64,000 nt of DNA, taken from assembly GCA_043228905.1 (NCBI GenBank), contig JBHGNT010000006.1:5952001-6016000 (forward strand), read 5' to 3'. Shown in pieces: positions 31,501 through 57,600 of this stretch (position 1 is its first letter; the number at the start of each line of letters is the position of its first letter). The position numbers were made by a program, and so were the translations under genes. The DNA is from Azolla caroliniana. Lineage: Eukaryota; Plantae; Polypodiophyta. The notes beneath the pieces were generated by a model. That model did not search any database. It had not been told where the DNA came from and saw nothing but the letters and a program-made list of their open reading frames with translations.

Positions 31501-34500
31501 TCAGAGAATCCTGTCTATGCTTTATTCACCATACACATCTGTGATGCATGCTTTTGTTTCATATTCTGAATTAGCGTTAAATAAAGCATTCTCACTGCCC
31601 CATCCTCCATAAGGATGGAAAATGTGATCAGCCCAATTTAACTGATGCTAGAATCATTTCTTCTTGATTTATTTAATATGTCATTTTCTCTGTTTCTGTT
31701 TGTAGAGGTTTCTTACCTTCAGTTCCTTGTTTTAAGAACTCCAGCTGAATAGTTGTAAATTATTAGTAGTTGAATATCTGAATGTTTGTGATAATTCTAG
31801 TTGAATGTTTGGTTTTTCTGATAGTACACAATTCAGTATTTGTTATATTATTAAAATAATTTCTCTACCTCTTTTTCAGGCATATGCAACCATAGATGGT
31901 GTTGCAGTCGATGTACTTATTGAAGGTGCCCAAGCCCAAAATAGAGCAGTGAGTCCTTTGAACCTGTAAATGTGGACAATATTTAACAGTCCTGCATTAT
32001 GCTCCTATTCTAAGGTATGTCAATTACTTTTTGCAGATTGACGGTGATGTTGTTGCGATTGTCATCAATCCTGTTCCTTATTGGACCAAGTTGAAAGGAT
32101 CAGTTGCCAATCAGAACAGTAATGATCTTAGTTCTGGAGTGACTGATATCGTTGCTTGCAACCATGGGAGTCAGCTTATAGATGAGGAGGGCCAATGTGA
32201 CGATTTAGAACTGACATCCGTTACTGATATAAAAGGTAGCAGAGAAGATGCAGATGCTTTGTCAGATATTGAATCCACAATGGAAGTAAAGGACAGTGAA
32301 GTAAATTATCAGCTGCTAGATGACTTGATGTCAAATATTTCATTAAAAAATGACAAGGGTCAGAAGCAGCATGACCTTCAGTCGGAGGTGACAGATACTC
32401 CTCTATTGAGCAGTGCAACCAAAACTTTACGGGATCTTGTGGCATCATATCCTGACAAGCGACCTACTGGTGACGTGGTAGCAATTTTAGAGAAGTCAGA
32501 TCGCCGTGAAACAGTTGTGGGATTTCTGGAAATTGATCATAAGGCTGGCAATAAGTATATCGTGAAAGAACCATCCAAAGCGTCTATATCAAACGCCTCT
32601 TTATTGCTTGTACCATCTGATGCCAGGTTTCCAAAAATGATTGTTTTTGTCAATGATCTACCTACTGACCTCAAACAGAAATATCTGGTGGGTGACCCAA
32701 AGCTTTGCAGTGAACTTGTGGCAGCTTCTGTTGTGGAATGGAAAGAGGATAGATTTTCTCCCCATGCAGTTGTTACTCACAGTCTTGGCCAAGGTGGGGC
32801 ATTAGATGCCCATTTGGCGGCCATATTATTTGAGCATGCTGTTCACAGTGCAGAATTTCCCTTGTCAGTGTTAAAATGTCTACCTGAGATACCTTGGGGT
32901 ATACCATCTGAGGAGTTCAAGAGAAGAAGAAACCTTACAAGTTCTAGAATATTCACAATTGACCCAGCTACAGCTAGAGACTTGGATGATGCATTGTCAA
33001 TTGAGAGTTTGGAAAATGGGCTGCTAAGAATTGGTGTACACATTGCAGATGTTTCATACTTTGTTCATCCAGATACTGAACTGGATAAGGAAGCACAGAA
33101 TCGTTCGACCAGTGTTTATCTCATTCAACAAGTGCTTCCTATGTTGCCTCGTGTACTTTGTGAAGAGTTATGCTCTCTTAACCCTGGGGTTGATCGCCTT
33201 GCCTTCTCTATTATGTGGGATATTGATAACTCAGGGCAGATTGTTGACCAGTGGATTGGGCGCACTATAATAAAATCTTGTTGTAAACTGTCATATTCGC
33301 AAGTACAGGATATTATTGACGGGAGAGTCACAGTAAATGAAAATGATGAGGTAGAGAATTGTACAGAAGATTCAGGTTGGCCTCAATTACATGGGGGGTT
33401 TAAATGGGTTGAAATTTTTGATGATGTAAAGGTTCTTCACCTTATAGCAAAACATAGGCGTGTTGCAAGGTTTGAAGGTGGTGCTCTCAGTCTCCAAAAT
33501 TCAAGACTTGTGTTTGACTTAGATGAGGATGGAACACCTAATGACAGTAGCCTCTATGAGCATCAGGACTCTAATTTTTTGGTGGAGGAATTCATGCTTT
33601 TGGCCAATATGACTGTTGCTAAAGTAATAGCTGGTGCATTTCCTGACTGTGCACTGTTGAGACGCCATCCTGAACCTAACCTCCGCAAATTAAAAGAGCT
33701 GGAGGAATTCTGTAGCAAGAATGGGCTCGAATTGGATGCTTCTTCATCTGGTGCATTACATGAGTCTTTGAGTAAGCTCTGTGAAGCTCACAAGGAGGAT
33801 TCTGCCTTTTGTAGCATTTTGATGCTTTATGCAACTAAACCGATGCAACTAGCTAAATATTTTTCTACTGGAGAGCTGAAAAATGAAGAAGAATGGGCTC
33901 ATTATGCATTGGCAACGCCACTCTATACCCATTTTACTTCCCCAATTCGCAGATATCCTGACATTGTTGTTCATAGAACTCTGGCGGCAGCTTTAGAGGC
34001 TGAAGGTCTACTTTCAGGAGCGAGTTACAGTGGAACTTCTTCTATAATTAACAGATACATTACTGGTCCCTTGTTGGACAAGCAGAAGGTTGAATCTCCC
34101 GAAGGCCAACAAGCTTTGGCTACTGCTGCAAATAACCATAAAGTTCCATCTTGTCAAGAGTTGTCTTTACTAGCTGAGCATTGCAATAGGCGAAAGCTAG
34201 CAAGTAGGAATGTGAGAGATGCCAGCGACAAGGTGTACCTCTGGGCTATGCTTAGGAAGAAAGAGGTAAGCAATAATAGGGACAAAACACCCAAATACTC
34301 CTGTGTGGTTTTCTAATTTTCGAAATGCCCTTGGTCGACCCCAGAAATGGAGAAGGGAACTAATTGACCACATAGTTACTCAAATGGTACATAAAAAAAC
34401 TTAGAAGCAGATGAATTTTCCATATAATTGCTCAAATAGCTTGTGTTATTTTTCTTATCGGAAGTTACCCAAGGGCATTAGGGGAACTAAATTACAGTAG

Positions 34501-36186: not shown

Positions 36187-38499
36187 GAGCTATTGCTAGG
36201 CCTAATAGAGCTAAATATATGTGTCTGCCATCCATGGTCCACTTTATGCTCATTGTAAGGACACATTGTTGCAGTTGGAATCGTCATAGAAGTAAATGAG
36301 ATGGTTGGGGGAAAGAGCATGATTATATGAAATAGACGTTAATAGTGAGGATAAAGTGAAATTGAATGCTTTTATTACTTGAATATATCAATTTACATCA
36401 CTTATATGTGAACTACTTTAATTGTCACGAGAATGTAAAATGACTTAACTTACACCTCTCATGTCTGTGTAGGGAGATAGCTATGAACTCTTGCTCACTG
36501 CTTAATGGCAGAAAGCTTTTGTAATAGGCTATTCCCCTTTCTCTTGCCTCTTTGTCACCCTTCTCTTTTTTGCTCACCATGGGCAACTCTTCCTTTTCTC
36601 TATCTTATTCTCTTTGATCACTATCTTCGTCTTCTTCGTCTTCTGCTTCACTTCAAGTTCTTGCTCAACAATATCGTTTGTTTCTTCACTTTATTCCTTG
36701 ATTGATTGCTTCCTTTGTTAATTTCTTTTTGGATTCCCCCCCCCCCCCCCTCCCTAAGTGGCTTTGATAGGCTACTCATAACCTCATTAGCCTTCTCGAG
36801 AAGTTTCTAGAAACATGTTTAATAATTATAAAATGGCCATGTTTTTAGAACCTTCCTTAGAATTACACATATGGCCTTAAATATGTAGGCCTAAATTAAT
36901 TTATGATTATGAAAATGGTATTCCTTATATTTTAGATCAATCCTTTCTTGATTTTACAAACATGGCCCATATATGAAAATGGTATTTCTACACCAATGGC
37001 TAGGCGTCAATATAAGGGACTCATTAAAGTGAATTAGACATTCAAAGACAAAGTTGTGGCCTCTAATAAGGATTAGGGAGATAGAGAAAGAGCTTTAATA
37101 TGCTAATGGGAAGAGAACTCTCAAGAATGAGAAAGCTTAAAAGTCACCAAAAGGTGGGTTTTATAGCTTTCTACGAAGTATCTCTTTTTCACACTAGAGT
37201 GTCGATTGGGCTACATTGGTCCTTTGGTTTGTTCTATCCTGCCATTTTCCTATGCTTGGTTGCACTTGGTGACTTTCGTTGGTGTCGCGATCTTCATAAC
37301 CGGTGTACTAGTGCCGGATACTTAACTCTATGACGATGAACACTTTGGTAGTAAAGACCAAGTGTATTATACTAGAATCCATGATGATGAATACATTGGT
37401 AATTAGGCCCTAGTGTATATTACACTTGAATCTATGATATGAAATTGTAAGATCTTTATATAGTTGATATGTCTGACCATTGATGAATAAGGTGACAAAT
37501 GATGATTGGAAGTGCAATTTATATCGTGGTCAATTCAAACCCTTCACATTTGGGGAAATAAAAAAGTTATCTTTACAATTTATGATAGTAATATGAAATA
37601 ACATAAAGAATGTACATAATGTTATTATAACGTCCTCAAAATGCCACAAACATGACTGTAATCAGACCCAAAATAAGGAGTGTTGCAACACAAAGATTAC
37701 CCTAGTTGCTAATCTTAAGGTGTAGTCCCTATGTGGATATTATGTTGCCTTATGTAGAGAAAGAGGAGAGAATATGTACATGGAATGAGTTATGACCTAA
37801 AGAGAGATAAGCTAATATACCAGATGCAAAACCAATCGAAACATATGTGAATGAGGGGAGGATATGTAACCCAAACTAAGTTACAATTCCCTTGGCTAGT
37901 TCACACATCTGAATAGTTCAAAAGAACACTTGGAGAGAGCTATGTCTAATCTAGAGACTTTGACGAACTTATTTTATTTTTAGAATTATACTACCCATAT
38001 AGTAGCATTACCTTTACAATTAATGGCACCTAAAAGGCTTTTTACTACTCACACAAACTTTTGTAATTTGTTATGGGAAACCCTAAATGAAGCATGATTA
38101 TCAAATGAAGCACAAACTTGTTATTTGATGAGGCAAAACCTAATAATAATAATTAACCTTGTTGCCAGAAAAGACTTGAGTTTAAATCCTGAAAGTGTTG
38201 CAAGAAAAGGTCGTCAAAAATCTAATTGACAAGCACACACAATGATATGAAATTGTTTTCTTTTTCCCTTAACTTCCGTTGATTAGAAATTGGGAATAAG
38301 AAAAAGGGACCCTATTCCATTTAGGGCATACTAGTCTTACAAAAAGATTGACAATGTCAAGATCCAGAATTTCATCATCATCATTGTGGAATCACCAATT
38401 TAACCATCAAATTTACAATAAACTTGGTTCCAAGTGCAAAACATTTTCACCGTACACATGGAAGCAAAAAGAAATTAACATTGGTGGATGTCTCCTTTT

Positions 38500-38766
38500 T
38501 GTTACCCCGTACGAGATGTACGGAGAGTCAAGTGTGATGAGCGAGGGTCGAATGTTATCATGATGTTGTGTATGTGTAGGGGGCATAAATGTAATTGTGA
38601 GTCTATACGTATGTGAACACATGCACACGTGTGTGCATGTAGATGGATACGAGGAGGTGTGAGTGAGTGTCCAATATGAATGCTCGAGGGGGCTTATACC
38701 CCTATGTATCTACCCCCTCTTGTACTATTTAACCCCTTATGGGGAATGAATGAAACATGAATAACC

Positions 38767-38827
<61 letters not shown>

Positions 38828-40649
38828 GCGGCTGAAGAGCAACCGGGCAACAGTCTGCGCGGTTGGAGAGCGGTCGGAAGGGTCGGAAACTGGTCGGAAT
38901 AACCGGATGCAGACAGGCGACCAGGACGACGGACCAGACGCACGACCGGAAGACAACAGACAAATGGCTGGGACAATAGCTGAACAACAACAGGAGTGGC
39001 GGCAAATAATCAGCGGTGGTAGCGAAAAATTGGCGACGAAGATGGTCGGACAACAAACGGCCGAGTAAAAGCGGTCAGACGAATGACGATGCCAAACAAT
39101 GGCAGAACTGGCTGGACGAACCGGACAGACGAGCGGACGGGATGGACAAGCATTAGATAGCCGACGACCGGACAGACGGCGGGAGGAGGACTGGAATCGA
39201 CGGACACGCCGGACAAAGCGACGGACGATGGCCGGAATAGCAAACATCGAATGGTTGTAGAGGCGGCCGAAAAGACACGACCAGAAGGGCCGAAGACAGA
39301 GACGGCAACCAACTGACAACCGATAGACAACAACGGCTAGACACAGCCGAACCGCGGCCAGAACGGAGGCCGCAAGAACGGCCGGATAGATGGCCAAATA
39401 TTGACGAGTGAATAGAGTGGTCATGCGACGAATCTCGGCCAAAACAGGTAGCCGACTGGAGACTGGCCGAACAGGCCTAGCGACGACGAGAAAGGGAGAT
39501 GGTGATGATCGACACAGAGATGAAAGACGCCGAGACGATGAATAGCAACGGCCACAGAAGCGACAACAATGAATATAGACGGACGGAAACGACGACGGCA
39601 ACACAAAGAAGGAGATGACGTGCAAGCAAAGGGAGAGTGAAGGTTGCGTTTCCTCCCTACCCCGAAACGCAAAAACAGAACAAGAACGAAGTGGAAGAAA
39701 CAGAGGTAGAAGAAGAAAGAGAGAGGAGGAGAATGGAACACAAGAAGGAACGAAAGCAGAAAGAAGTAGAAAGAGATGAGGGATACACACAAGAGAGAGT
39801 GTAATAACGGACCACAACAATAACCTAGAGATAAAGACGAAGTCGGAGCATTACAAAAACAAGAAGACAGGAATGGATAAAGACGAAATTGAAGCAGAAG
39901 ATAGGACGGGAAGAAAAATAGAGAAAGGGCAAGAGAGAATGATAGGGGTATGGAACATAATTTTAAAACATGAGGGTATTTGATAATATTTCAAAAACAA
40001 AGGGTAGCAACCTAAAATTTCATAAACTTGAGGGCACCGACGAAATTGTAAAAACTCATCCACCTAGAGAAATGGATGTGATCAACAACGACAACTCACA
40101 CAAAATTAAAGGAAGAACACACATACACACAACGTGTTTTTGGACCCATGATGAAGTTCGTTAGCCGACAGAACGAGAATGTTTGTGTCGCGGACGATTT
40201 GCTGACCGACAAAGATGTTCGAGTCAAGCATTCCGATCGAGGGAGTCGATCGTTGAAAGGACCGATGGAAGTTCCGGTCGAAGAAATATCATCATCAAGG
40301 CATGTGGGATCGACGTGCAAGGCACTTTCCCACGAGCGTGCCATATTATGTTACCCCGTACGAGATGTACGGAGAGTCAAGTGTGATGACCGAGGGTCGA
40401 ATGTTATCATGATGTTGTGTATGTGTAGGGGGCATAAATGTAATTGTGAGTCTATACGTATGTGAACACATACACACGTGTGTGCATGTGGATGGATACG
40501 AGGAGGTGTGAGTGAGTGTCCAATATGAATGCTCGAGGGGGCTTATACCCCTATGTATCTACCCCCTCTTGTACTATTTAACCCCTTATGGGGAATGAAT
40601 GAAACATGAATAACCATTTCTCTCTCTCTCTCTCTCTCTCTCTTTGACA
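38500..40649 (-). mobile_element. Non-coding LTR element (TRIM/LARD-like) with an Arg-type PBS
   Basis: Direct repeats 38500-~38827 and 40349-40649 (about 3 substitutions in ~270 bp, plus a (CT)n length difference). Minus-strand PBS TGGCACGCTCGTGGGA at 40343-40328. No recognisable gag/pol. TSD imperfect (ctttt vs tcttt). Confidence 0.75.
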
Positions 40650-41421
40650 TCTTTCTCTCTCTCCCCCCTTAACGTTGAACCCCCTTGGGAGGGGGGTGGA
40701 GCCATTCTAGGCACCACCCCCCACCCCGCAATGCTTCTCAATGCTTGTCTTGCATCTTCATGATCTCTCACCATCATACCATTCATCATCTCCACCATTA
40801 CACAATGTCTATCTTCATCATCAATCATCATCATCATCATTCTCATTAACCCTAACCCTAAAAACCTACCACACTTTTGATTACATCATAATCAAACCAC
40901 CCTCAATATCTTTTGTTTGTTGTCCTACTACCTTGACGTAGCACTAAGAAGAAGCTAGGAATCAAAACACCCTCAATATCTTTGGTTTTTTGTCTCGCTT
41001 CTAGCCTAACATAGGAATCTCAGGCCTCGTCCATCATAGCAAAAGACGTTGTACCAAAGTTTAGGAGCATGTTTCAGATTGTACAAGCTCTTTGTTGAGC
41101 GGCAAGCTCAACCGGAGCTGGATCGGCTGAATAAGCCGGAGCCGGTAAGCGAGACGGATCGGGCGAAACGGATCGGTATGACGGTGAGCAACCGAACCGG
41201 CAAGCAGTGGAGGCCGGGTACAACCAGAAGTCCAATCGGAAGCCTAGTATAGGATAGCCTACTAGGTAGCTATAGTCTCGTAGTAAGTGTCAGATGCTCA
41301 TGTGAGCATTGAAGTACATGGTACTTCTGTCAGTCCCAAGAGGACTTGTATAAATAATGCTACTTAGCATAGTGTGTGTACAGAGTCTTGATATAATTTT
41401 GAAATTGTGTTCTACTCTCTT

Positions 41422-41480
<59 letters not shown>

Positions 41481-41944
41481 TGTTCTCTGTTTTACGCTGT
41501 CGCGAAGATTCGCGCGTGCGTGTGCTACTCGAGCGACCACCGGGGTCTTGGACTGGGGAGGATGTTCGCGGAATTATCGAAGAGATGACGATCAATGTAA
41601 GATTAGACGGAATTTGTTCACTTGAGAAGAAGAAAGCTTGTACACTTGAGAAGTAGAAAATAATGAAGAAGATAAAGACAAATATTATATTGATGATAAT
41701 GGTGTTGGTGATATCACATATTGAGCCCCCCTTACACAAGCCCAACTAGAGGCTTTTATAGGTCTTTCCATGCTCGTGACATGCACAAAACTATGGGCTA
41801 AAACCATGGTTTTGTGCACACGGTTTTGCTTATGTCATGCACAAACCATGGGTTTAAAACCATGGTTTTGTGCACATGGTTTTCTATGGTTGTTTTGTCT
41901 ATAATTTGTATATGAAAAGGAAATACATATAATCTACACTATAT

Positions 41945-42015
41945 GATAGTTGTCCTAGTGGTAAGGCAATTATCTTGTATCTTAGAGGTGCAAGGTTCAA
42001 TCCTTGCTTGCACCC
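41945..42015 (+). promoter_or_regulatory. tRNA-like Pol III type-2 promoter (A box + B box) in the 3' LTR
   Basis: A box TGTCCTAGTGG at 41951-41961; B box GGTTCAATCC at 41994-42003; tRNA-like spacing; T-arm hairpin GCAAGG-TTCAAT-CCTTGC. Confidence 0.65.
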
Positions 42016-42226
42016 CTCTGTATGAACTCAAGTGCCATTAGGCTAGGTTTATTTGCTAAGTGCATGTGCAATGTTGCACATCCTTGGTTTATTCGTCTCA
42101 CTCGGTTTCACACCGTAGCCGAAAATCGTCACGACATCCACCCCCACCAAACCCGCACATCCTCCGGTATGTGCCGAGAAAGGTGAAGAGGTGAGATCTT
42201 TGGCAACGGTGATCAACCGAGTTCCT

Positions 42227-44325
42227 CTACACGCTCGTCGACTTCGTCTTCCACTTCGAGTATGCGCAATCTTTCCAACCGAACCACCGTAGCCACCCGA
42301 TCCACCATATCCGGCGCTCACACCTTCTTCCCCGATCGGTTGTAGTAGATCTACCGAACGATGTCGTCGATACGACCGCTCTTCCTTCGTCCACCGCGCG
42401 TGTCCTTCGATTGGACTCCTGGCCACTCCTCACGCTCACCGTCTTCAACTGGGTATTGTAGATCGTTCGTGTCGATCTCCGATTAGGCCGGGTTTGCCCT
42501 TGTCCGGATCGGTCTCCACCGATCGCTTCTTGGCTTGGTTGGCCTTCGTCTGCATTCACATTTCCCCGAGTCGGGCTCGACCGATTGATTCTGGCTGGGT
42601 CGGCCCCCTTCTGGATCGGAATCGTCTGATCGATTTTCGCCGAATCAGGTTTCGGCCGGGTCGGCCCCGGTCGATCGGCTCCCATGTGGATCTTCCTTCG
42701 TTCGGGTCGGAATCCCGGCCGGATCGTCTTCCGGTTCAACCGGTTCTCGACTCTTCCTTCCTTCCCGCATGCAACCTCTCCATCGAACTCAACCGCAGCT
42801 TCATCCTTGGCCTCCACGTCGGCCATATCCTTCCCTCCATGTATGCTCGCCTCGAGCCATATTGTCTCCTCTTCGCCACCTCCTTTATCTTCGGTCTTAT
42901 GTCGACACACGGTCTCGACTGCCGAAGTCTGCGGAACCAGTGTGAAGGAATCCCTTCGCTCATGCACATTTTTACCTTGTCTTCTTCATCGCCCTTCCGG
43001 TCGTCCTCTTTTTTGTCCACACATTCCGTCTCTCCGGTCTCACGTTGGCGCACGTGCACAACCGCCGAAGTCTCTAGAATAGGTGTGGGGATATCCTTTC
43101 TTCCTTGATCTTCTTCCTCTTTGTGTTGGGCCTTTGTCTTCCCGTCACCACCTTCCGTCTCTCCGGTCTCACGTTGGCACATGGGTGCAACCGCCGAAGT
43201 CTCTGGAACAATCGTGGAGAAAGTCTTGACATGGCTATCCGTTGTCGACTCGTCCATAGCCACCTCCGACTCGATGTCGTTTGTCATGGCTACCTCCTCA
43301 ATCTCTTCAGACTCAAACACTTTTCCTCCCTCGATCATGCAAGCTTTTCTCATGCTTGCGTCGTCATCACCCGATGTTTCGTACACAATGCGTGTTCCGA
43401 AACATTTATCCTCCCTCGAAGTGGCGTTCGCCGTCCTCGAGTCATCGGCCTCCTCCTTCGCCGTCGTTTCTTTGTAAGACAAGAAGGTGACTTGTTTCAC
43501 ACCTTCTCTCTCGGTACCGTCATACCGAACTAGAGCCTTTGTATCGGCCACTTCATTAACCCGCATTTGTTGGGAGGTCTCTTCTTCCTCGATCACCATT
43601 CGCCTCGGTTTTGTCTCCCTTCTAAGCTTCATTTCTTTTGTTGGTGGTGCGTTGTTGCATCTCGTCCCTCTTCGATCGTCCCTCATGGGCCGTCTTGTTG
43701 TCGTCGATATTCTCGCTTGCCCCTTATCGTGTAGTCGGCATACACTTTCCACTTTGCTCCAATCCTCGATGAGTCCATTTGCACCGTCATCTTCTTCGAG
43801 TTTGAGGCCGATCGCCATCCTTTCCATTCGATCGATTGACTTCACGAACATAAGGACCTTATCGACCCCCACCAATCTTTGTTCCCGCTCCGACAATTGA
43901 GAAAAATGATGCTCGAAGTCTACGAATGCTTGTGTCGCACCTTGGTAGGTCTTCGCTGATGTCACCCATTGGTCGAAGTTGCGTCGATCTTGTCCCTTTA
44001 GTCTCTCATAGTCATATTCCTCCAATAGAGCCTTCTCGAAAGTCGCCCACGAATCATGAGCTTCTAGAAGCTCTTCTACATCTTTGAAGATCGGTTGAGA
44101 CACCACCCGACAAAAGTACTCTAGCCTCATAGCTTTGTCCACACCTCTTGAATCCATCTCCGCATTGTAGACTTTTAGGAAACTTTGGACATCGGCGCCG
44201 TTGAAATAGCTCATTCGTTCGACTACTTTGTCGACGGCTTGTTGGGCTTCATTTCTTCTTTTCTCTTCTCTCAGAAACTCCATCATCCTTCTTGCCATTG
44301 CCTCCATGAGATATTCGCCATCCAT
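42227..44325 (-). CDS. Gag-like protein with a long acidic, repetitive tail (ORF 44325-42736, probably continued in the -1 frame by 42967-42227)
   Basis: N-terminus FNGADVQSFLKVYNAEM..SWATFEKALLEEY resembles a retrotransposon capsid. No PR/RT/RH/IN motifs. A (P/L)(E/Q)TSAV..(C/R).(R/H).T repeat occurs twice in ORF1 and once in the overlapping ORF2. Confidence 0.7.
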
Positions 44326-44816
44326 CTTCGTCCTCCCCTGCTGCTCTTCACGTCGGGTTCACCAAATGATGTCGCGAAGATTCGCGCGTGCGTGTGCTAC
44401 TCGAGCGACCACCGGGGTCTTGGACTGGGGAGGATGTTCGCGGAATTATCGAAGAGATGACGATCAATGTAAGATTAGACGGAATTTGTTCACTTGAGAA
44501 GAAGAAAGCTTGTACACTTGAGAAGTAGAAAATAATGAAGAAGATAAAGACAAATATTATATTGATGATAATGGTGTTGGTGATATCACATATTGAGCCC
44601 CCCTTACACAAGCCCAACTAGAGGCTTTTATAGGTCTTTCCATGCTCGTGACATGCACAAAACTATGGGCTAAAACCATGGTTTTGTGCACACGGTTTTG
44701 CTTATGTCATGCACAAACCATGGGTTTAAAACCATGGTTTTGTGCACATGGTTTTCTATGGTTGTTTCGTCTATAATTTGTATATGAAAAGGAAATACAT
44801 ATAATCTACACTATAT

Positions 44817-44887
44817 GATAGTTGTCCTAGTGGTAAGGCAATTATCTTGTATCTTAGAGGTGCAAGGTTCAATCCTTGCTTGCACCC
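44817..44887 (+). promoter_or_regulatory. tRNA-like Pol III type-2 promoter (A box + B box) in the 5' LTR
   Basis: Identical copy of 41945-42015; A box at 44823. Confidence 0.65.
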
Positions 44888-45129
44888 CTCTGTATGAACT
44901 CAAGTGCCATTAGGCTAGGTTTATTTGCTAAGTGCATGTGCAATGTTGCACATCCTTGGTTTATTCGTCTCACTCGGTTTCACACCGTAGCCGAAAATCG
45001 TCACGACAACGCTTCCGCAAACACTTACGTTTACATGGTATCAGAGCGCGAGGGTTGAGAACCTCTGCTGCAGACATTTACTCTTGAGAAGAAAACCCTA
45101 ACAGGTCGAAAACAGACACAGTAGAAGAC

Positions 45130-50177: not shown

Positions 50178-53100
50178 GCGGCAAGCTCAACCGGAGCCGG
50201 ATCGGCTGAATAAGCCGGAGCCGGTAAGCGAGACGGATCGGTATGACGGTGAGCAACCGAACCGGCAAGCAGTGGAGGCCGGGTGCAATCCGTAACCGGA
50301 AGTCCAATCGGAAGCCTAGTATAGGATAGACTACTAGGTAGCTATAGTCTCGTAGTAAGTGTCAGATGCTCGTGTGAGCATTGAAGTACATGGTACTTCT
50401 GTCAGTCCCAAGAGGACTTGTATAAATAGTGCTACTTAGCACAGTGTGTGTACAGAGTCTTGATATAATTTTGAAATTGTGTTTTGCTCTCTCTGTCTCT
50501 CTCGCTCTCTGTCTCTCTGTCTCTCTCTCTCTCTTTGTCTCTCTCTGTGTGTTGTTCTCTGTTTTACGCTTCCGCAAACACTTACGTTTACACTCTTCTA
50601 ATTAACCTACAAATGAGGTTTTCTTACCTTTGATTCCAAAGCCCTCAAGAAGTTCTTCCAAATCACCATGAAGGAAGGCGATCTCTACGTCAAGTTGTTC
50701 AATTTCTAAATTGAGATTGGATGCAATCCCAAGTAAATTTTGATTGAAGACATCTTAAACATTGGTGGAAAAATCTCCTCAAAATCAACACCCTTTTTTT
50801 AAATTGAAGCCCTTCACAACCAATCTTGCCTTGTATCTTGGTTGTGAGCAATGTTCCTTAATCTTGAGCTTGTAAACCCATGTGTTTTTCAACACTCTCT
50901 TGCCCTTTATCAAAGAGAAAGTGGTAAGACAACAATACGGAAAAAACAAAAGCAGGTAATAATGAGAAAATAGCAAAGAGAGAGGAGATGAGCATCCAGA
51001 GGACATTGATACTTGATATATGGGACAAGATTGAGGTCATGTGAGACCGATACAGTTAATGAATTGAGGGTTGTGCCAATGGGAAGACTTGGGGCAAGTC
51101 AAAGGTATGATTATCTTACAAGGAATTCATCTCATTAGTTATGGCCTCAAAACATTTCCTTTTTTGATCATGTGCCATTGCTTCTCTAGAGCTTCCTGGC
51201 TCTACCCCATCTGTGAGCATCACATATTCATGTGGACTACGTCTAGTAGAAGCTTGTCTTTGTCTCATAGACTTTCTAACCTCTTCCTCTTATGGTGGAA
51301 CTACTGTCCAATGCTATCAACACGGTCAATTGGAATACGATGATCATGATTTTGCTCATCATCATCAACTACATCATTATACTCCTCTACATCTCCCGTG
51401 TGACCCTAAATATCTAGGGTGATTGTTGAATGTGCGGTGATTAAAAAATCAGGAGAAATCTGGTAATTCTTTTTTTTCAAGAACAAATACTACATTAGTA
51501 TTAAGAAACACCCTAAGGTTATACATAAAAGATGTGCCTTTCAGTAATGGGTTCATTTTCTAAATTCTAACCGCCAACATGTCTTTCTTTAGTCACATTT
51601 TGAAATACCTTAAAATATCGAGCCGTCTAAATATACCAAATTGTGATATTAGTTACAAATTGCCGGTTTATCATTCTCTATTTGCGGATTTAATGGTATT
51701 TTGAAATCCGGTATTTCACCCAGCTTTGGATCTTGTAAAGTCTGATCCTCAAGCAATACTACATCCCTACTTCTAGTAAGCGTTTTATTCACTGGGTCAT
51801 ATAAGTCCTATGGCCAAGTGTGAACACAAGCTTGTCATCAAGCTTGGATCTTATATCATTGTAGTCCGCATTGCTTCACCCTTGAAAGGTTTAGGCAATT
51901 TTGAATGAGACAAAATACACCTTATCATTCATTTCAGCGACACCATTGTGTTTAGGTGTTTTTAGAATACTGTCTCAAGCGTAATAGCGTGATCACGATA
52001 ATATTGCTCAAATTGACCCTGATATTCACCATCGTTATCTGCACAAATAATTTTAGCTTCCTTCTAATTTCTCTTTCAAAACTTGCAAGGAAACTCTTAA
52101 AAATCCCAAATACCTGATCTTTACATTTCAATGCAAAGCACCACATTTTCTTTGAGAAATCATCAATGAATGCAGCACCAAGCGTTCTATCTATCATATA
52201 ACACAAACCAGTATGCACCAATTCCAAAGGAAGAGATTTTCTTTTGGGGCTAAATGTTGAAAGGCAACTCTATGTTGTTTACTAATCAAACAATCGACAC
52301 AAGTTTCTGAATGCATACATGTTATTTCAGGCAAAATATTCTTCCTTGCAAAAACCTCTAGTCCTTTTGGACTCATGTGCCCATAGCTAAATAGAGACAT
52401 CCTTTCTAGCTACATTTACCTTCCACTAGATAACATAACATGCGTAAGGTATAGAGAATTCATTTTTTGACATTTTGCAATGATGAGAGAGCCTTTGGTG
52501 AACTTCCATCTTCCTTCACCAAAGTAATTTGAATGGCCCTCATTATCAAGCTTGCCTACAGAAATGATAAATCTCAATTGAACATCCAGAAATTGTCTAA
52601 CATCCTTCAATACAAGTTCTGAACCTATGTCTATCACCAAATTGACATTCTCTATGCCAACAACCTCTGTCACATCCTTGTTGGACATTTTGACTCTACC
52701 AAAATTACCACCAACATATGTTGTAAACATCTGCCGATATGGGCTAATATCATACGAGGCTCTTTAGTGAATAATTCAATTAGTTTGTTAGCATGATAAA
52801 CCGACACAAACATCATTACGAATAATGATAATTTCACCATCGCATGTGGCTGTTGTAAGGTCATGTTTCTTATTGTTTCATTCTTTTGGTCTCGCTTCTT
52901 TCCACAATTTCTTTCATAGGGATTTGATTGATCAACCCTTGAAATACATTTAGGTGCTCTGCCATACTAGAGTCATCGTGATATCTTAATCTTATTATAT
53001 TTTTGAATACAAATACTTTGTTTAATGCATTCTTAGTTTTAAACATACCCCCAAATTTCTTCCACAAAACATCAACTTTGGTTTCATCATCAAAGCTATT

Positions 53101-54612: not shown

Positions 54613-57600
54613 TTAGAAGAAGCCAATGGAGCATTTGTTGCAGAGGAATCGTAGGGGTATCGCGTCGGAATCGGCGATCCCCCCGCACCTCGTGTGTTGC
54701 CAGACCTCACACACATCACATGCTATCATCCGCTCCCCGTCATCATCCTGCGCGCCACACGGGCAGTCCACAACCCAGCTATCACTACCGCCTTCGAACC
54801 GAAACTCGTTCATCATCATCACAACATGCTTCTTGACGCGAACCATATCCAAGGCATTAGGGATGGCACCATTGGTACCACTCGAGGTGGTACAGCTCTC
54901 TAGGATCTCATGTTCTAGGCTCGAGGTGCCTCGGATGACAATGTGAGAGCCCGATTCGATGTTCCCGAACAGGAGGTCGTCATCGTCGACACCCGGTAGA
55001 GAAGGGATGGACTCGATCTTGAAGCCACGCATTGCAAAGTAGGTGTCTCGGAATGCCCACTCCGCCTCCCTCTTCAGCTCTCCGACGGTCGCGTGGGGAG
55101 GGAGAACCACCAATTCCGGGGGCGGGTTCGGACGTCTCCTCTTCGTCTTCATTACGGTCCTACTACCCATACCCATACCGTTAACGCTAATGTCATGATC
55201 ACCATCGATATGATTAGGTTTGTAATCTCTGCTATTTATCATTCCTGCACTGCCACTACTTGTAGTAGTCACTCCATTCATATTACCAATCCCAATATTG
55301 TTGGTGATTACTCTTTGGTTAGTAGTATTCATGCTAGACTTGCTCATATTTGATCCACTCATATTGCTTCCACGATGATGATGATGATGATGATCATCAT
55401 CATCATCCACATTCTCCTTGCTCATTCTATCATTGACGCTATTATTGGTTCCGTTTATATTTAGAACCTCATCAATCTCATTACCATCGCCCAGCAGTAC
55501 CTCTAAAACCTCATCAAATAACCCTGCTTCACCATCGCCACCATCACCATCACCATCACCATCACAAGTCCCCATAATTTCTGCTCGATCAGCAGTCGAA
55601 GATCCATTGATCTGAATCAAACCCATCAAATCGGCCGGATCCATCGGATCGCAAACCTCTTCCAATTCCGCATACTCAGCTAACTCCGCGTCTTCTCTCA
55701 ATTCCACAGTGCACATAACTCTCAGCATTTCATCATCATCATCCATACCCCAATCTAGTGTACTGTTACTGTAACTACATTTCCTTGAAACTTCACCCCT
55801 GTAATCCTTCATCATCTGTTTAGTGTCTAGGATAATCCTTGAAGCTGTGGGTATGGCTTTGAGAGCATGAGAGACCTTGGTGGATCTTTTAGCAGGTTTA
55901 TAGCTTTCCAATACATGCCTGTACAGATAACATATATCCTTCTGCACATCCGTTCTTCCGATTTGATACTCCAAGCTTAATAATTCTGTACTCATGTCTG
56001 GCGATCCTTTCGAAGTCCCGTTCTTCTGATGATCTTTCACTTCAGAGAAGTCACAGTTCGTCGACGTGTTGGAACTATTCGACAGTAATATCCCACCTGT
56101 ACTATCGGAGCTTCTAGCCATGGTAGAGCTTAAGTTAGTGTCTTCGAGGCTGTATTCAAGCACTTTGGTGAGAGGATTCACTGCTCTGCGGACTGTATAA
56201 TTCCCCACAGTTCGATTTCCCAACGATTTGAGAACAAAATCGAGAAGACCTGTGTCGCCAATATAAACCCTTGCAGCGTCTCGGACGTCTTGTCTTGGCA
56301 TCCATTTCTTCTCACAATTCTTCAAAGCTTCAACGATCACCTGCGTTGCGAGCTCTAATCGCTTCGTAGACCATCTACAGCTAGGCATGTTAATGTTATC
56401 CAGATATCCTGTAGATGAATTCGAACTGGAAGAATTCGAAGAAGAAGAATTGGAAGAATTCCAAGAAGAAGAAGAATTTAAAGAAGAAGACGAATTCAAC
56501 GAAGAAGAGGAAGAGGCAGACCCAGTAACGTTGTTTTCTTTGCCAGCTCCGTTATTGAATCTACCTGTGGTACTGTTATTACTTCTGCGAAGTTGTTGAT
56601 CTGCAGCATGCCTTGGTTGCAGACGATGGTCTGATTGAGGTCGATTGCCATTAAAGCTGCACTCAAGCTTGGGTAATTTGGCTTTGGTTTCGATCATAAA
56701 ACGGATGAGGTCACCGACAGTCTGCAACGAAGAAGAAGAAGAAGAAGGAGGAGGTGGAGACGAAGAAGACGTGGAAGTGATGAGAGCGAGGCGCTGGTAA
56801 CGAGAGACGATAGTGGCTATGGTGTCTTGATCCGAACCCAAGCCATGGAAGTGCTGAAGCATGACGCTGAGAGGCATGCCTCGGATCGCTTCGATGGCCT
56901 TCCCATATACCTGCTCCGTGATCCCGAAGCTACCATGGCCGAACCTGTATCCCCACCTGCCAAACCACGACTGCCCATAAGCCACACAATGCAGCAGCCG
57001 AAGCTCCAACTCTTTCTTCTTCGTCACGTCCTCCACGCTCACCTTCCTGCCATCCAACGATTCAATTCAATTCCATTCTATTCCATTCAATTGCAAATCC
57101 AAGCCAGTTCAATCAGTTTTTAACCATACTTTTTTAATCCACTCCATTAATATCCCTTCCAATCCAACTCCAGCTTATTTTTTAAATCCATCCCTTTCAA
57201 CTCCGATTCTCTTTATATTCTATCAAATCATTTCTGATCCATCCAACCATTATCTAGCGAAATGCAATATTTGTTGGGTAATACTGATGTTACAGTGTTG
57301 TCGATACAGGACGCCCCCCCCCCTCAACAAACGAGTACTTGTTTGGTAATATGAAAAAGGGTCCTGTCCTTATTTTAGCGGAAGGCTTTGATTCGGCTCC
57401 TCTGGACATTATTCAGATATTCATAACCGCTAAATTATATGATCAGGAAACCGTTTCAGATTAGTGTCACCGATGAAACTATTATTCAAGATTATCTTTT
57501 TATGGATAATTATTTCACAGGATTAAAGGGCCCATTCTTAAGTACTCCAGAACGTCATTAGATATATTTCCTGCAACTGGCAGATGCAAATTACAGTCCT

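What the first reader, a model, noticed from the sequence alone, without database searches (positions are those of the whole stretch)
41945..42015. tRNA-like Pol III module in both LTRs of a young Gag-only retrotransposon (a possible tRNA analogue of Cassandra)
Seen: each LTR contains GATAGT-TGTCCTAGTGG-TAAGGC...AGAGGT-GCAAGGTTCAATCCTTGC. The A box is one mismatch from TGGCNNAGTGG and starts 43 nt before a B box that sits in a T-arm hairpin, which is tRNA geometry. The acceptor and anticodon arms do not pair. The module lies upstream of and antisense to the LTR's own TATA (~41760, minus), with no T4 terminator before the LTR end. Known: Cassandra TRIMs carry 5S Pol III promoters in their LTRs, and TFIIIC-bound B boxes can act as chromatin barriers in other eukaryotes. 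Inference: the family may have fixed a tRNA/SINE-derived promoter, used either as an insulator against silencing or to make antisense or outward Pol III transcripts. The 5'-LTR copy points straight at the host Copia PBS and gag.
Basis: partly seen in the sequence, partly recalled or inferred. Interest (0 to 1): 0.8.

Follow-up and report, generated by a model that had tools for sequence, protein, structure and literature searches.

The report
Backward tRNA promoter in Gag-only retrotransposon
The end repeats of a young plant jumping gene, and of several related families, carry a worn-down tRNA copy that faces backwards, so it cannot make the element's copying RNA as in known tRNA-bearing elements and likely serves instead as a protein-binding site beside the element's ordinary promoter.

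Summary
The motif is real. It matches 24 of 26 conserved tRNA positions at tRNA spacing, the best score in the window, but no cloverleaf forms. It lies in distal U3 of a 3.5-kb Gag-only Gypsy element with Phygy hallmarks: a 4-bp NCGN target duplication and a Trp-type primer site. It is no recent SINE insertion. Of 19 related LTRs, 11 carry it, in three otherwise dissimilar U3 lineages (10 antisense, 1 sense); 8 lack it. Its T-arm half is constrained: 2 of 32 positions vary, against 12 of 22 in the spacer. The whole module is not more conserved than neighbouring promoter DNA. The 'tRNA analogue of Cassandra' is already published (Helenus, PMC10886601), and this scan met it before in other genomes. 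This element fails Helenus's tests: it is antisense, coding, long, and keeps a TATA box. Best reading: a captured tRNA/SINE head, likely kept as a TFIIIC-type DNA site upstream of the Pol II promoter. A neutral relic remains a strong rival. No expression or binding data were available.

The parts
41498..45008 (-). Whole Gag-only LTR retrotransposon (TR-GAG structure, Phygy-like Gypsy), 3511 bp, TG...CA ends
44370..45008 (-). 5' LTR, 639 bp
   Evidence: 1 difference from the other LTR
41498..42136 (-). 3' LTR, 639 bp
41494..41497 (.). Target-site duplication ACGC, left copy (NCGN type)
45009..45012 (.). Target-site duplication ACGC, right copy
44347..44364 (-). Primer-binding site, 5 nt after the 5' LTR; tRNA-Trp type (isotype recalled, not from a call)
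   Evidence: the same site (<=2 mismatches) in 25 of 57 related loci
42137..42150 (-). Polypurine tract abutting the 3' LTR
42736..44325 (-). gag ORF, 529 aa; residues ~1-200 fold as a Ty3/Arc-type capsid; frameshifted near 42970, with the homologous C-terminal part continuing in another frame to about 42263
41944..42016 (+). tRNA-derived module in the 3' LTR (antisense to the element, distal U3)
44816..44888 (+). The same module in the 5' LTR
41951..41961 (+). A box (1 mismatch); copy at 44823-44833
41994..42004 (+). B box; copy at 44866-44876
41987..42014 (+). 8-bp hairpin enclosing the B box; most conserved part of the module
41754..41760 (-). TATA box of the LTR's Pol II promoter (copy 44626-44632); function inferred
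   Evidence: region 41726-41775 is 0.81 identical over 5 LTR lineages
41771..41883 (.). Two 56-nt palindromic U3 repeats between the module and the TATA box; likely enhancer
   Evidence: (family D10)
42020..42087 (+). Possible second, more decayed copy of the module (inconclusive)
   Evidence: best tile of 2130 for the L042 module, score 46 against 33 for the best non-LTR tile; not found by profile search
41222..41497 (+). Host Copia 5' LTR, part left of the insertion (start not fixed); continues at 45013-45034
   Evidence: (family D8, 94% to 50294-50578)
45037..45048 (+). Host Copia primer-binding site; its gag from 45130 has in-frame stops

Best explanation
The module is a decayed tRNA-type copy that faces backwards in the distal U3 part of the LTRs of Gag-only, Phygy-like Gypsy elements, and it is likely kept as a DNA binding site for the Pol III factor TFIIIC that would help hold the neighbouring Pol II promoter open. 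Shown: tRNA geometry without a cloverleaf; position upstream of the palindromic repeats and the TATA box; antisense direction; presence in three U3 lineages; constraint on the T-arm half. Inferred: capture from a tRNA gene or SINE head long ago, then copying into both LTRs at each reverse transcription and shuffling between families as an optional U3 block. Also inferred: TFIIIC binding at the B box, a barrier or enhancer-like effect, and at most a short outward Pol III RNA (about 90-230 nt in sister families, about 600-690 nt here). The element's own RNA would be made by Pol II from the TATA box and copied in trans by an autonomous Phygy-type partner, which I did not find.
For: 24 of 26 tRNA positions; 2 such sites in 40 shuffles. 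Module in 11 of 19 LTRs scored: 7 of lineage A (68-89% identical to each other), 3 of lineage B and 1 of lineage C, where it is inverted; B and C do not align with A across U3. A profile built from B and C only finds the window's module as best outside hit in about 212 kb (E 6.8e-4). One inverted copy fits a DNA site that works either way. In contigs of 3 runs (three coded organisms), variants at >=2% fall at 12 of 22 spacer positions (41963-41984) but at 2 of 32 positions of 41985-42016, both degenerate B-box positions (Fisher p 1e-4). The B-box bin is a local depth peak in 4 of 4 runs, and diverged contigs rejoin the LTR at the module after skipping unlike sequence. 7 of 11 modules have a perfect B box. 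In the 8 lineage-A rows, B-box changes fall on positions 57, 59, 60 and 62, except one C56T. TFIIIC and tRNA genes act as barriers in yeast and animals (PMC9540200, passages).
Against: No binding or expression data at all. Over 5 LTR lineages the module is 0.786 identical, against 0.74 for the AT-rich stretch upstream and 0.81 for the TATA-proximal region; it ranks 21 of 566 73-nt windows. 28% of 11-mers equal or beat the B box and 32% the A box. The best-conserved bases (41985-41997) include 9 nt outside the B box. No lineage-A copy has a perfect A box. 4 of 11 B boxes are decayed, and 8 of 19 LTRs do without the module. The 19 LTRs are not independent, come from collapsed metagenome contigs, and may be chimeric. 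The read-laying test favours sequences like the query and clips mismatches near ends, so it says nothing on the 5' half of the A box. The passages I saw of the plant barrier review give no plant example of a TFIIIC barrier.
Confidence: 0.42

Rival explanations
1. Neutral relic: an old tRNA/SINE head fell into U3 of an ancestral LTR and has been carried along; its conservation only reflects the conserved U3 block it sits in.
For: Module identity is close to that of adjacent U3; 8 of 19 LTRs lack it and 4 of 11 B boxes are decayed; imperfect A boxes in lineage A. [quoted passage not shown]
Against: Uneven constraint inside the module (2 of 32 against 12 of 22); survival in three U3 lineages whose flanks no longer align; identity drops to 0.49 right after it.
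Confidence: 0.28
2. Small-RNA cassette: Pol III makes a short two-hairpin RNA antisense to U3, as foamy viruses do from A/B-box units in their LTRs; it would tune the element's own RNA or host silencing.
For: The window's module folds as two hairpins, z -3.2. That fold pairs 86% of cells over 7 LTRs, with 2 pairs changed on both sides. T4 follows closely in 10 of 10 relatives. Precedent: PMC3993851 (passages).
Against: Covariation is borderline (26 and 35 of 500 shuffles reach the observed values). Only 5 of 11 modules fold with z <= -2.5, and lineages B and C fold differently. The stems are short for miRNA precursors. The window's family has no near terminator. T4 is common in AT-rich DNA.
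Confidence: 0.13
3. The conserved feature is the 8-11 bp hairpin or palindrome itself, acting on the element's genomic RNA or cDNA, or as one more palindromic factor site; the B box is incidental.
For: The hairpin also forms on the element's own strand (z -4.0; the only helix kept). Stem bases are as conserved as the box. This U3 is rich in palindromes (TGCACA 8 times against 0.6 expected).
Against: No pair of that stem changes on both sides. It does not explain the kept A-box core and fixed 43-44 nt spacing, nor the canonical A boxes of lineages B and C.
Confidence: 0.13
4. Helenus/Cassandra mechanism: the module is the Pol III promoter that makes the RNA template for retrotransposition.
For: tRNA-like A and B boxes lie in both LTRs, as in Helenus; one relative (L042) has them in sense direction.
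Against: Antisense in 10 of 11 cases, so the transcript leaves the element or runs against the primer site. The Helenus LTRs seen in the supplement passage, Helenus-1_SMo among them, are in sense direction. The element is 3.5 kb, coding, and keeps a conserved TATA box. In L042 a T4 lies 51 nt after the B box.
Confidence: 0.04

Closest known systems
Helenus / TRIMp3 (Kojima 2024, PMC10886601; read parts 1-5 of 6 of the text and one supplement passage)
   Same: Non-autonomous LTR element with a non-functional tRNA-like sequence and A/B boxes in both LTRs; primer site and purine tract present; proposed origin by SINE insertion into an LTR.
   Different: Helenus families are non-coding TRIMs of 311-1263 bp, with the tRNA part in sense direction in the sequences I saw, and are proposed to use it to make the template RNA; the only plant family is in Selaginella (5-bp TSD). 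Here the module is antisense, in a 3.5-kb Gag-coding element with a TATA box and 4-bp TSD.
Cassandra (5S-bearing TRIM; as described in PMC10886601 and bioRxiv 10.1101/2023.07.14.548913, passages)
   Same: Small-RNA-gene-derived Pol III boxes inside plant LTRs.
   Different: 5S type, non-coding, Met primer, Pol III promoter replaces the Pol II promoter. Here: tRNA type, added beside a retained Pol II promoter, facing away.
TR-GAG elements (Chaparro et al. 2015, PMC4350172; passages)
   Same: Under 4 kb, two LTRs, primer site, purine tract, a single Gag ORF, no pol.
   Different: Described with 5-bp TSDs, mostly from flowering plants; the passages read mention no tRNA-like LTR module.
Phygy lineage of Ty3/gypsy (Neumann et al. 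2019, PMC6317226; passages and one supplement row)
   Same: 4-bp NCGN TSD (100%) and tRNA-Trp primer (81%) in the supplement. Here the TSD is ACGC; 8 of 13 LTR flanks are NCGN and 4 more are CpG-decayed forms.
   Different: Phygy is defined on polyprotein phylogeny in Physcomitrella and averages 8.6 kb; this element has no pol, so the defining test cannot be run.
Foamy-virus LTR Pol III miRNA cassettes (Kincaid et al. 2014, PMC3993851; passages)
   Same: A/B-box Pol III units inside the LTR of a Pol II-driven, protein-coding retroelement, some of dumbbell shape.
   Different: Those are shown to be transcribed and processed to miRNAs. Here no RNA is shown, the fold is not kept across lineages, and the unit retains full tRNA spacing.

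Membership tests
Helenus (TRIMp3) | tRNA-derived sequence with A and B boxes in both LTRs | tested here: met
Helenus (TRIMp3) | TRIM: short (screen limit 1000 bp, longest 1263 bp) and non-coding | tested here: not met
   3511 bp with a Gag ORF
Helenus (TRIMp3) | Boxes oriented so that Pol III could transcribe through the primer site to the 3' LTR | tested here: not met
   antisense here and in 10 of 11 module-bearing LTRs; sense in the Helenus LTRs seen
Helenus (TRIMp3) | Pol III transcription | not testable with these tools
   no raw RNA reads available
Cassandra | 5S rRNA-derived LTR segment | tested here: not met
   no 5S match at E<=10; geometry is tRNA-type
Functional tRNA gene | Cloverleaf with paired acceptor and anticodon stems | tested here: not met
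   41% of cells paired, no better than slid controls; anticodon-equivalent triplet differs among families
TR-GAG | Under 4 kb, LTRs, primer site, purine tract | tested here: met
TR-GAG | Gag as the only coding domain | tested here: met
   capsid fold: best VIA match dArc1, Z 10.9, rmsd 9.7, 141 aligned, top 10 all retroelement capsids; Foldseek E 0.049 only; atlas hits of a homologue are Retrotrans_gag; no Pfam hit; internal region 2233 bp
Phygy | 4-bp NCGN target duplication | tested here: met
Phygy | tRNA-Trp primer site | tested here: inconclusive
   site conserved in 25 of 57 loci; its Trp identity is recalled, no host tRNA-Trp was retrieved
Phygy | RT/RH/INT phylogeny | not testable with these tools
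   no pol in the element; no longer relative found
Recent SINE insertion | Own target duplication, tail, free copies, absence from most family members | tested here: inconclusive
   present in all 7 lineage-A LTRs; no clear copy outside LTRs in about 212 kb (best two: a decayed one upstream of the L001 primer site, E 1e-3, and L016, E 0.055); no genome was available for a full search

The most novel reading that the evidence does not exclude
Pol II-driven, Gag-coding plant Gypsy elements have repeatedly recruited a tRNA-derived Pol III unit into distal U3 as a portable TFIIIC barrier or antisense small-RNA source, spreading very many such sites through the genome. This would be a second use of captured tRNA promoters, distinct from Cassandra and Helenus, and a natural test case for tRNA-type chromatin barriers in plants.
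Probability: 0.3. Interest if true: 0.72.

Novelty: new variant of a known kind. Interest (0 to 1): 0.42.

Why it matters
tRNA- or 5S-derived LTR promoters are known from tiny non-coding elements, where they are thought to make the copying template. Here the same kind of module sits backwards beside an intact Pol II promoter and still shows constraint, so any function must be a different one. Sister LTRs with and without the module, and one with it inverted, are ready-made controls for asking whether TFIIIC sites shield plant promoters from silencing. If it is only a relic, it is an ordinary example of LTR mosaic evolution.

Tried and rejected
No genome is held for this window, so copies could not be collected genome-wide and free SINE copies could not be searched. 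ARAGORN and Rfam found no tRNA at the module; the tRNA-Ser call at 54852 lies inside a PHD-finger ORF and was set aside. BLAST of the module against phages gave 8 chance hits, none on a tRNA. The only host tRNA in hand (iMet, L020) does not align with the modules above shuffle level, so the donor tRNA is unidentified. No RNA holder was listed among 23 runs; this is no evidence on expression. Run X21 (another coded organism) laid nothing on the module; no proof of absence. No Gag relative in viral contigs or among longer proteins; weak evidence on the autonomous partner. A Gag tree of 21 rows needs 4 gains or losses of the module, but 7 of 16 inner branches are open, one origin is not excluded, L033 was dropped (50 residues), and the LTR-gag link of L045 is doubtful. 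Cloverleaf rejected. A conserved dumbbell RNA is not established. A perfect A box on the element's own strand at 42045, 42 nt before a B-like reading of the same hairpin, is not kept in sister families. 'Aimed at the host Copia' rejected: the host gag has stops. Literature searches that found no description of an antisense tRNA module in coding plant LTRs: (0 papers); the library lacks most subscription papers and Repbase entries. Supplements of the bioRxiv Cassandra paper were not seen, and of the Helenus supplement only one passage, so antisense Helenus families cannot be excluded.

Full report
The element. Positions 41498-45008 hold a minus-strand LTR retrotransposon with 639-bp LTRs that differ at 1 position, a 4-bp target duplication ACGC, a primer site 5 nt after the 5' LTR, and a purine tract at the 3' LTR. 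It sits in the 5' LTR of an older Copia whose LTRs are 94% alike and whose gag has stops. The single ORF has no Pfam hit. Its first 200 residues model well and match Arc/Ty3-type capsids: best Z 10.9, rmsd 9.7, 141 aligned, with the top 10 rows all retroelement capsids. Foldseek alone is weak (E 0.049), and a homologue's atlas neighbours are Retrotrans_gag. The ORF is frameshifted near 42970 against a 98%-identical relative. The structure is that of TR-GAG elements (PMC4350172, passages). The 4-bp NCGN duplication and the Trp-type primer (isotype recalled) match the Phygy lineage (PMC6317226 supplement row); 8 of 13 LTR flanks are NCGN and 4 more are CpG-decayed forms. I did not determine the host; earlier notes on this genome say fern or moss.

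The observation. The A box (41951) and B box (41994) are as described. On 26 conserved tRNA positions at fixed spacing the module scores 24, above anything else in the window; 40 shuffles gave 2 such sites, and real iMet genes score 22-23. It is not a tRNA: ARAGORN and Rfam miss it, and a cloverleaf pairs 41% of cells, no better than slid controls. It folds instead as two hairpins (z -3.2).

Distribution. A Gag alignment retrieved 57 loci. I scored the 19 LTRs, the window's included, whose distal U3 was mostly present; I left out identical copies (L006, L007a), a chimeric one (L008b) and those too short or of unclear extent (among them L001, L012, L016, L017, L031, L037). The module is present in 11: seven of lineage A, three of lineage B and one of lineage C. 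It is antisense in 10 and sense in L042; it is absent from 8 LTRs of four other types, some of which share the LTR 5' end with the window. L047 scores only 20 and is counted by homology to L033. A profile from lineages B and C finds the window's module first among outside hits (E 6.8e-4). The family is high-copy in 4 of 4 runs from four coded organisms; the B-box bin is a local peak in each, and some contigs rejoin the LTR at the module after unlike sequence. So the module is an old, optional U3 block, not a fresh SINE insertion. A Gag tree suggests several gains or losses but is poorly resolved.

Constraint. For: in contigs of 3 runs, variants at >=2% occur at 12 of 22 spacer positions but at 2 of 32 positions from 41985 to 42016, both degenerate B-box positions (p 1e-4); 41985-41997 is invariant in 5 lineages; 7 of 11 B boxes are perfect. 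Against: the whole module (0.786) is about as conserved as the upstream AT-rich stretch (0.74) and the TATA region (0.81); 28% of 11-mers match or beat the B box; lineage-A A boxes are all imperfect; 4 of 11 B boxes are decayed; the laying method favours query-like contigs and clips ends. The two-hairpin fold pairs 86% of cells but its covariation is borderline, and it is not kept in lineages B and C.

How it could work. Pol III from this module would run away from the element's TATA box. In 10 of 10 relatives it would meet T4 within 22-163 nt of the B box; in this family it would run about 600 nt into the host Copia or 690 nt antisense into gag. No such RNA can be the replication template, because it does not pass the primer site in the right sense. 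A conserved TATA box and palindromic repeats point to ordinary Pol II transcription (inference). What is left is a DNA-level role, a small antisense RNA, a hairpin role, or none. I favour a TFIIIC-type site (0.42), because the B-box half is what is constrained and one lineage carries it inverted. A neutral relic (0.28) is the main rival. TFIIIC barriers are known from yeast and animals; the passages I saw of a plant review cite no plant case (PMC9540200).

Comparison. The tRNA analogue of Cassandra is published as Helenus (PMC10886601), which also states that a fair number of Repbase LTRs contain tRNA-like parts. The Helenus LTRs I saw are in sense direction, and Helenus elements are non-coding and at most 1263 bp. 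This element fails those tests and is not filed there. The closest working analogue of a Pol III unit in the LTR of a coding retroelement is the foamy-virus miRNA cassette (PMC3993851, passages). Searches found no description of this arrangement. Earlier notes of this scan hold Helenus-type elements in other genomes but no look-alike of this LTR or Gag. Other papers seen: PMC6911290, PMC13570524 and bioRxiv 10.1101/2023.07.14.548913, passages only.

Verdict. A real, old, partly constrained tRNA-derived module in an arrangement I did not find described; function untested. New variant of a known kind; interest 0.42.

Noticed in passing
L020 33-735, 744-815, 1046-1117, 1342-2040: Two related LTRs (93% alike; one a solo LTR with ACGG on both sides) sit at the same position of different units of a ~300-bp tandem array of tRNA-iMet genes, about 8 nt behind the tRNA 3' end. 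Either targeting to tRNA genes or amplification of one insertion; living beside tRNA genes could also be a route for capturing tRNA sequence.
   Followed up: partly
window 42020-42087: Possible second, more decayed tRNA-like copy directly behind the module; it overlaps a palindrome shared with module-free LTR types.
   Followed up: partly
window 42280-42330 (minus) and alignment A1: The Gag-like ORFs of this lineage end in a conserved tryptophan-rich motif after a long acidic, disordered linker; role unknown.
   Followed up: no
window 41771-41883: U3 repeats carry CATGCA (resembles the RY element bound by B3-domain factors; recalled) 3 times per LTR against 0.8 expected, and TGCACA 8 times against 0.6.
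   Followed up: partly
L005, L007, L008: Gag-only units of two families alternate with shared LTRs, suggesting tandem arrays or recombinant LTRs, or assembly collapse.
   Followed up: no
window 38497-38794 and 40346-40643: Another pair of ~300-bp direct repeats, 99% alike and 1849 bp apart, likely a second small young LTR element.
   Followed up: no
window 32280-34316 and 54613-56877: Host genes: an RNB-domain (Dis3-like) ORF and a PHD-finger ORF of At1g33420 type; the ARAGORN tRNA-Ser call at 54852-54932 falls inside the latter and looks spurious.
   Followed up: no
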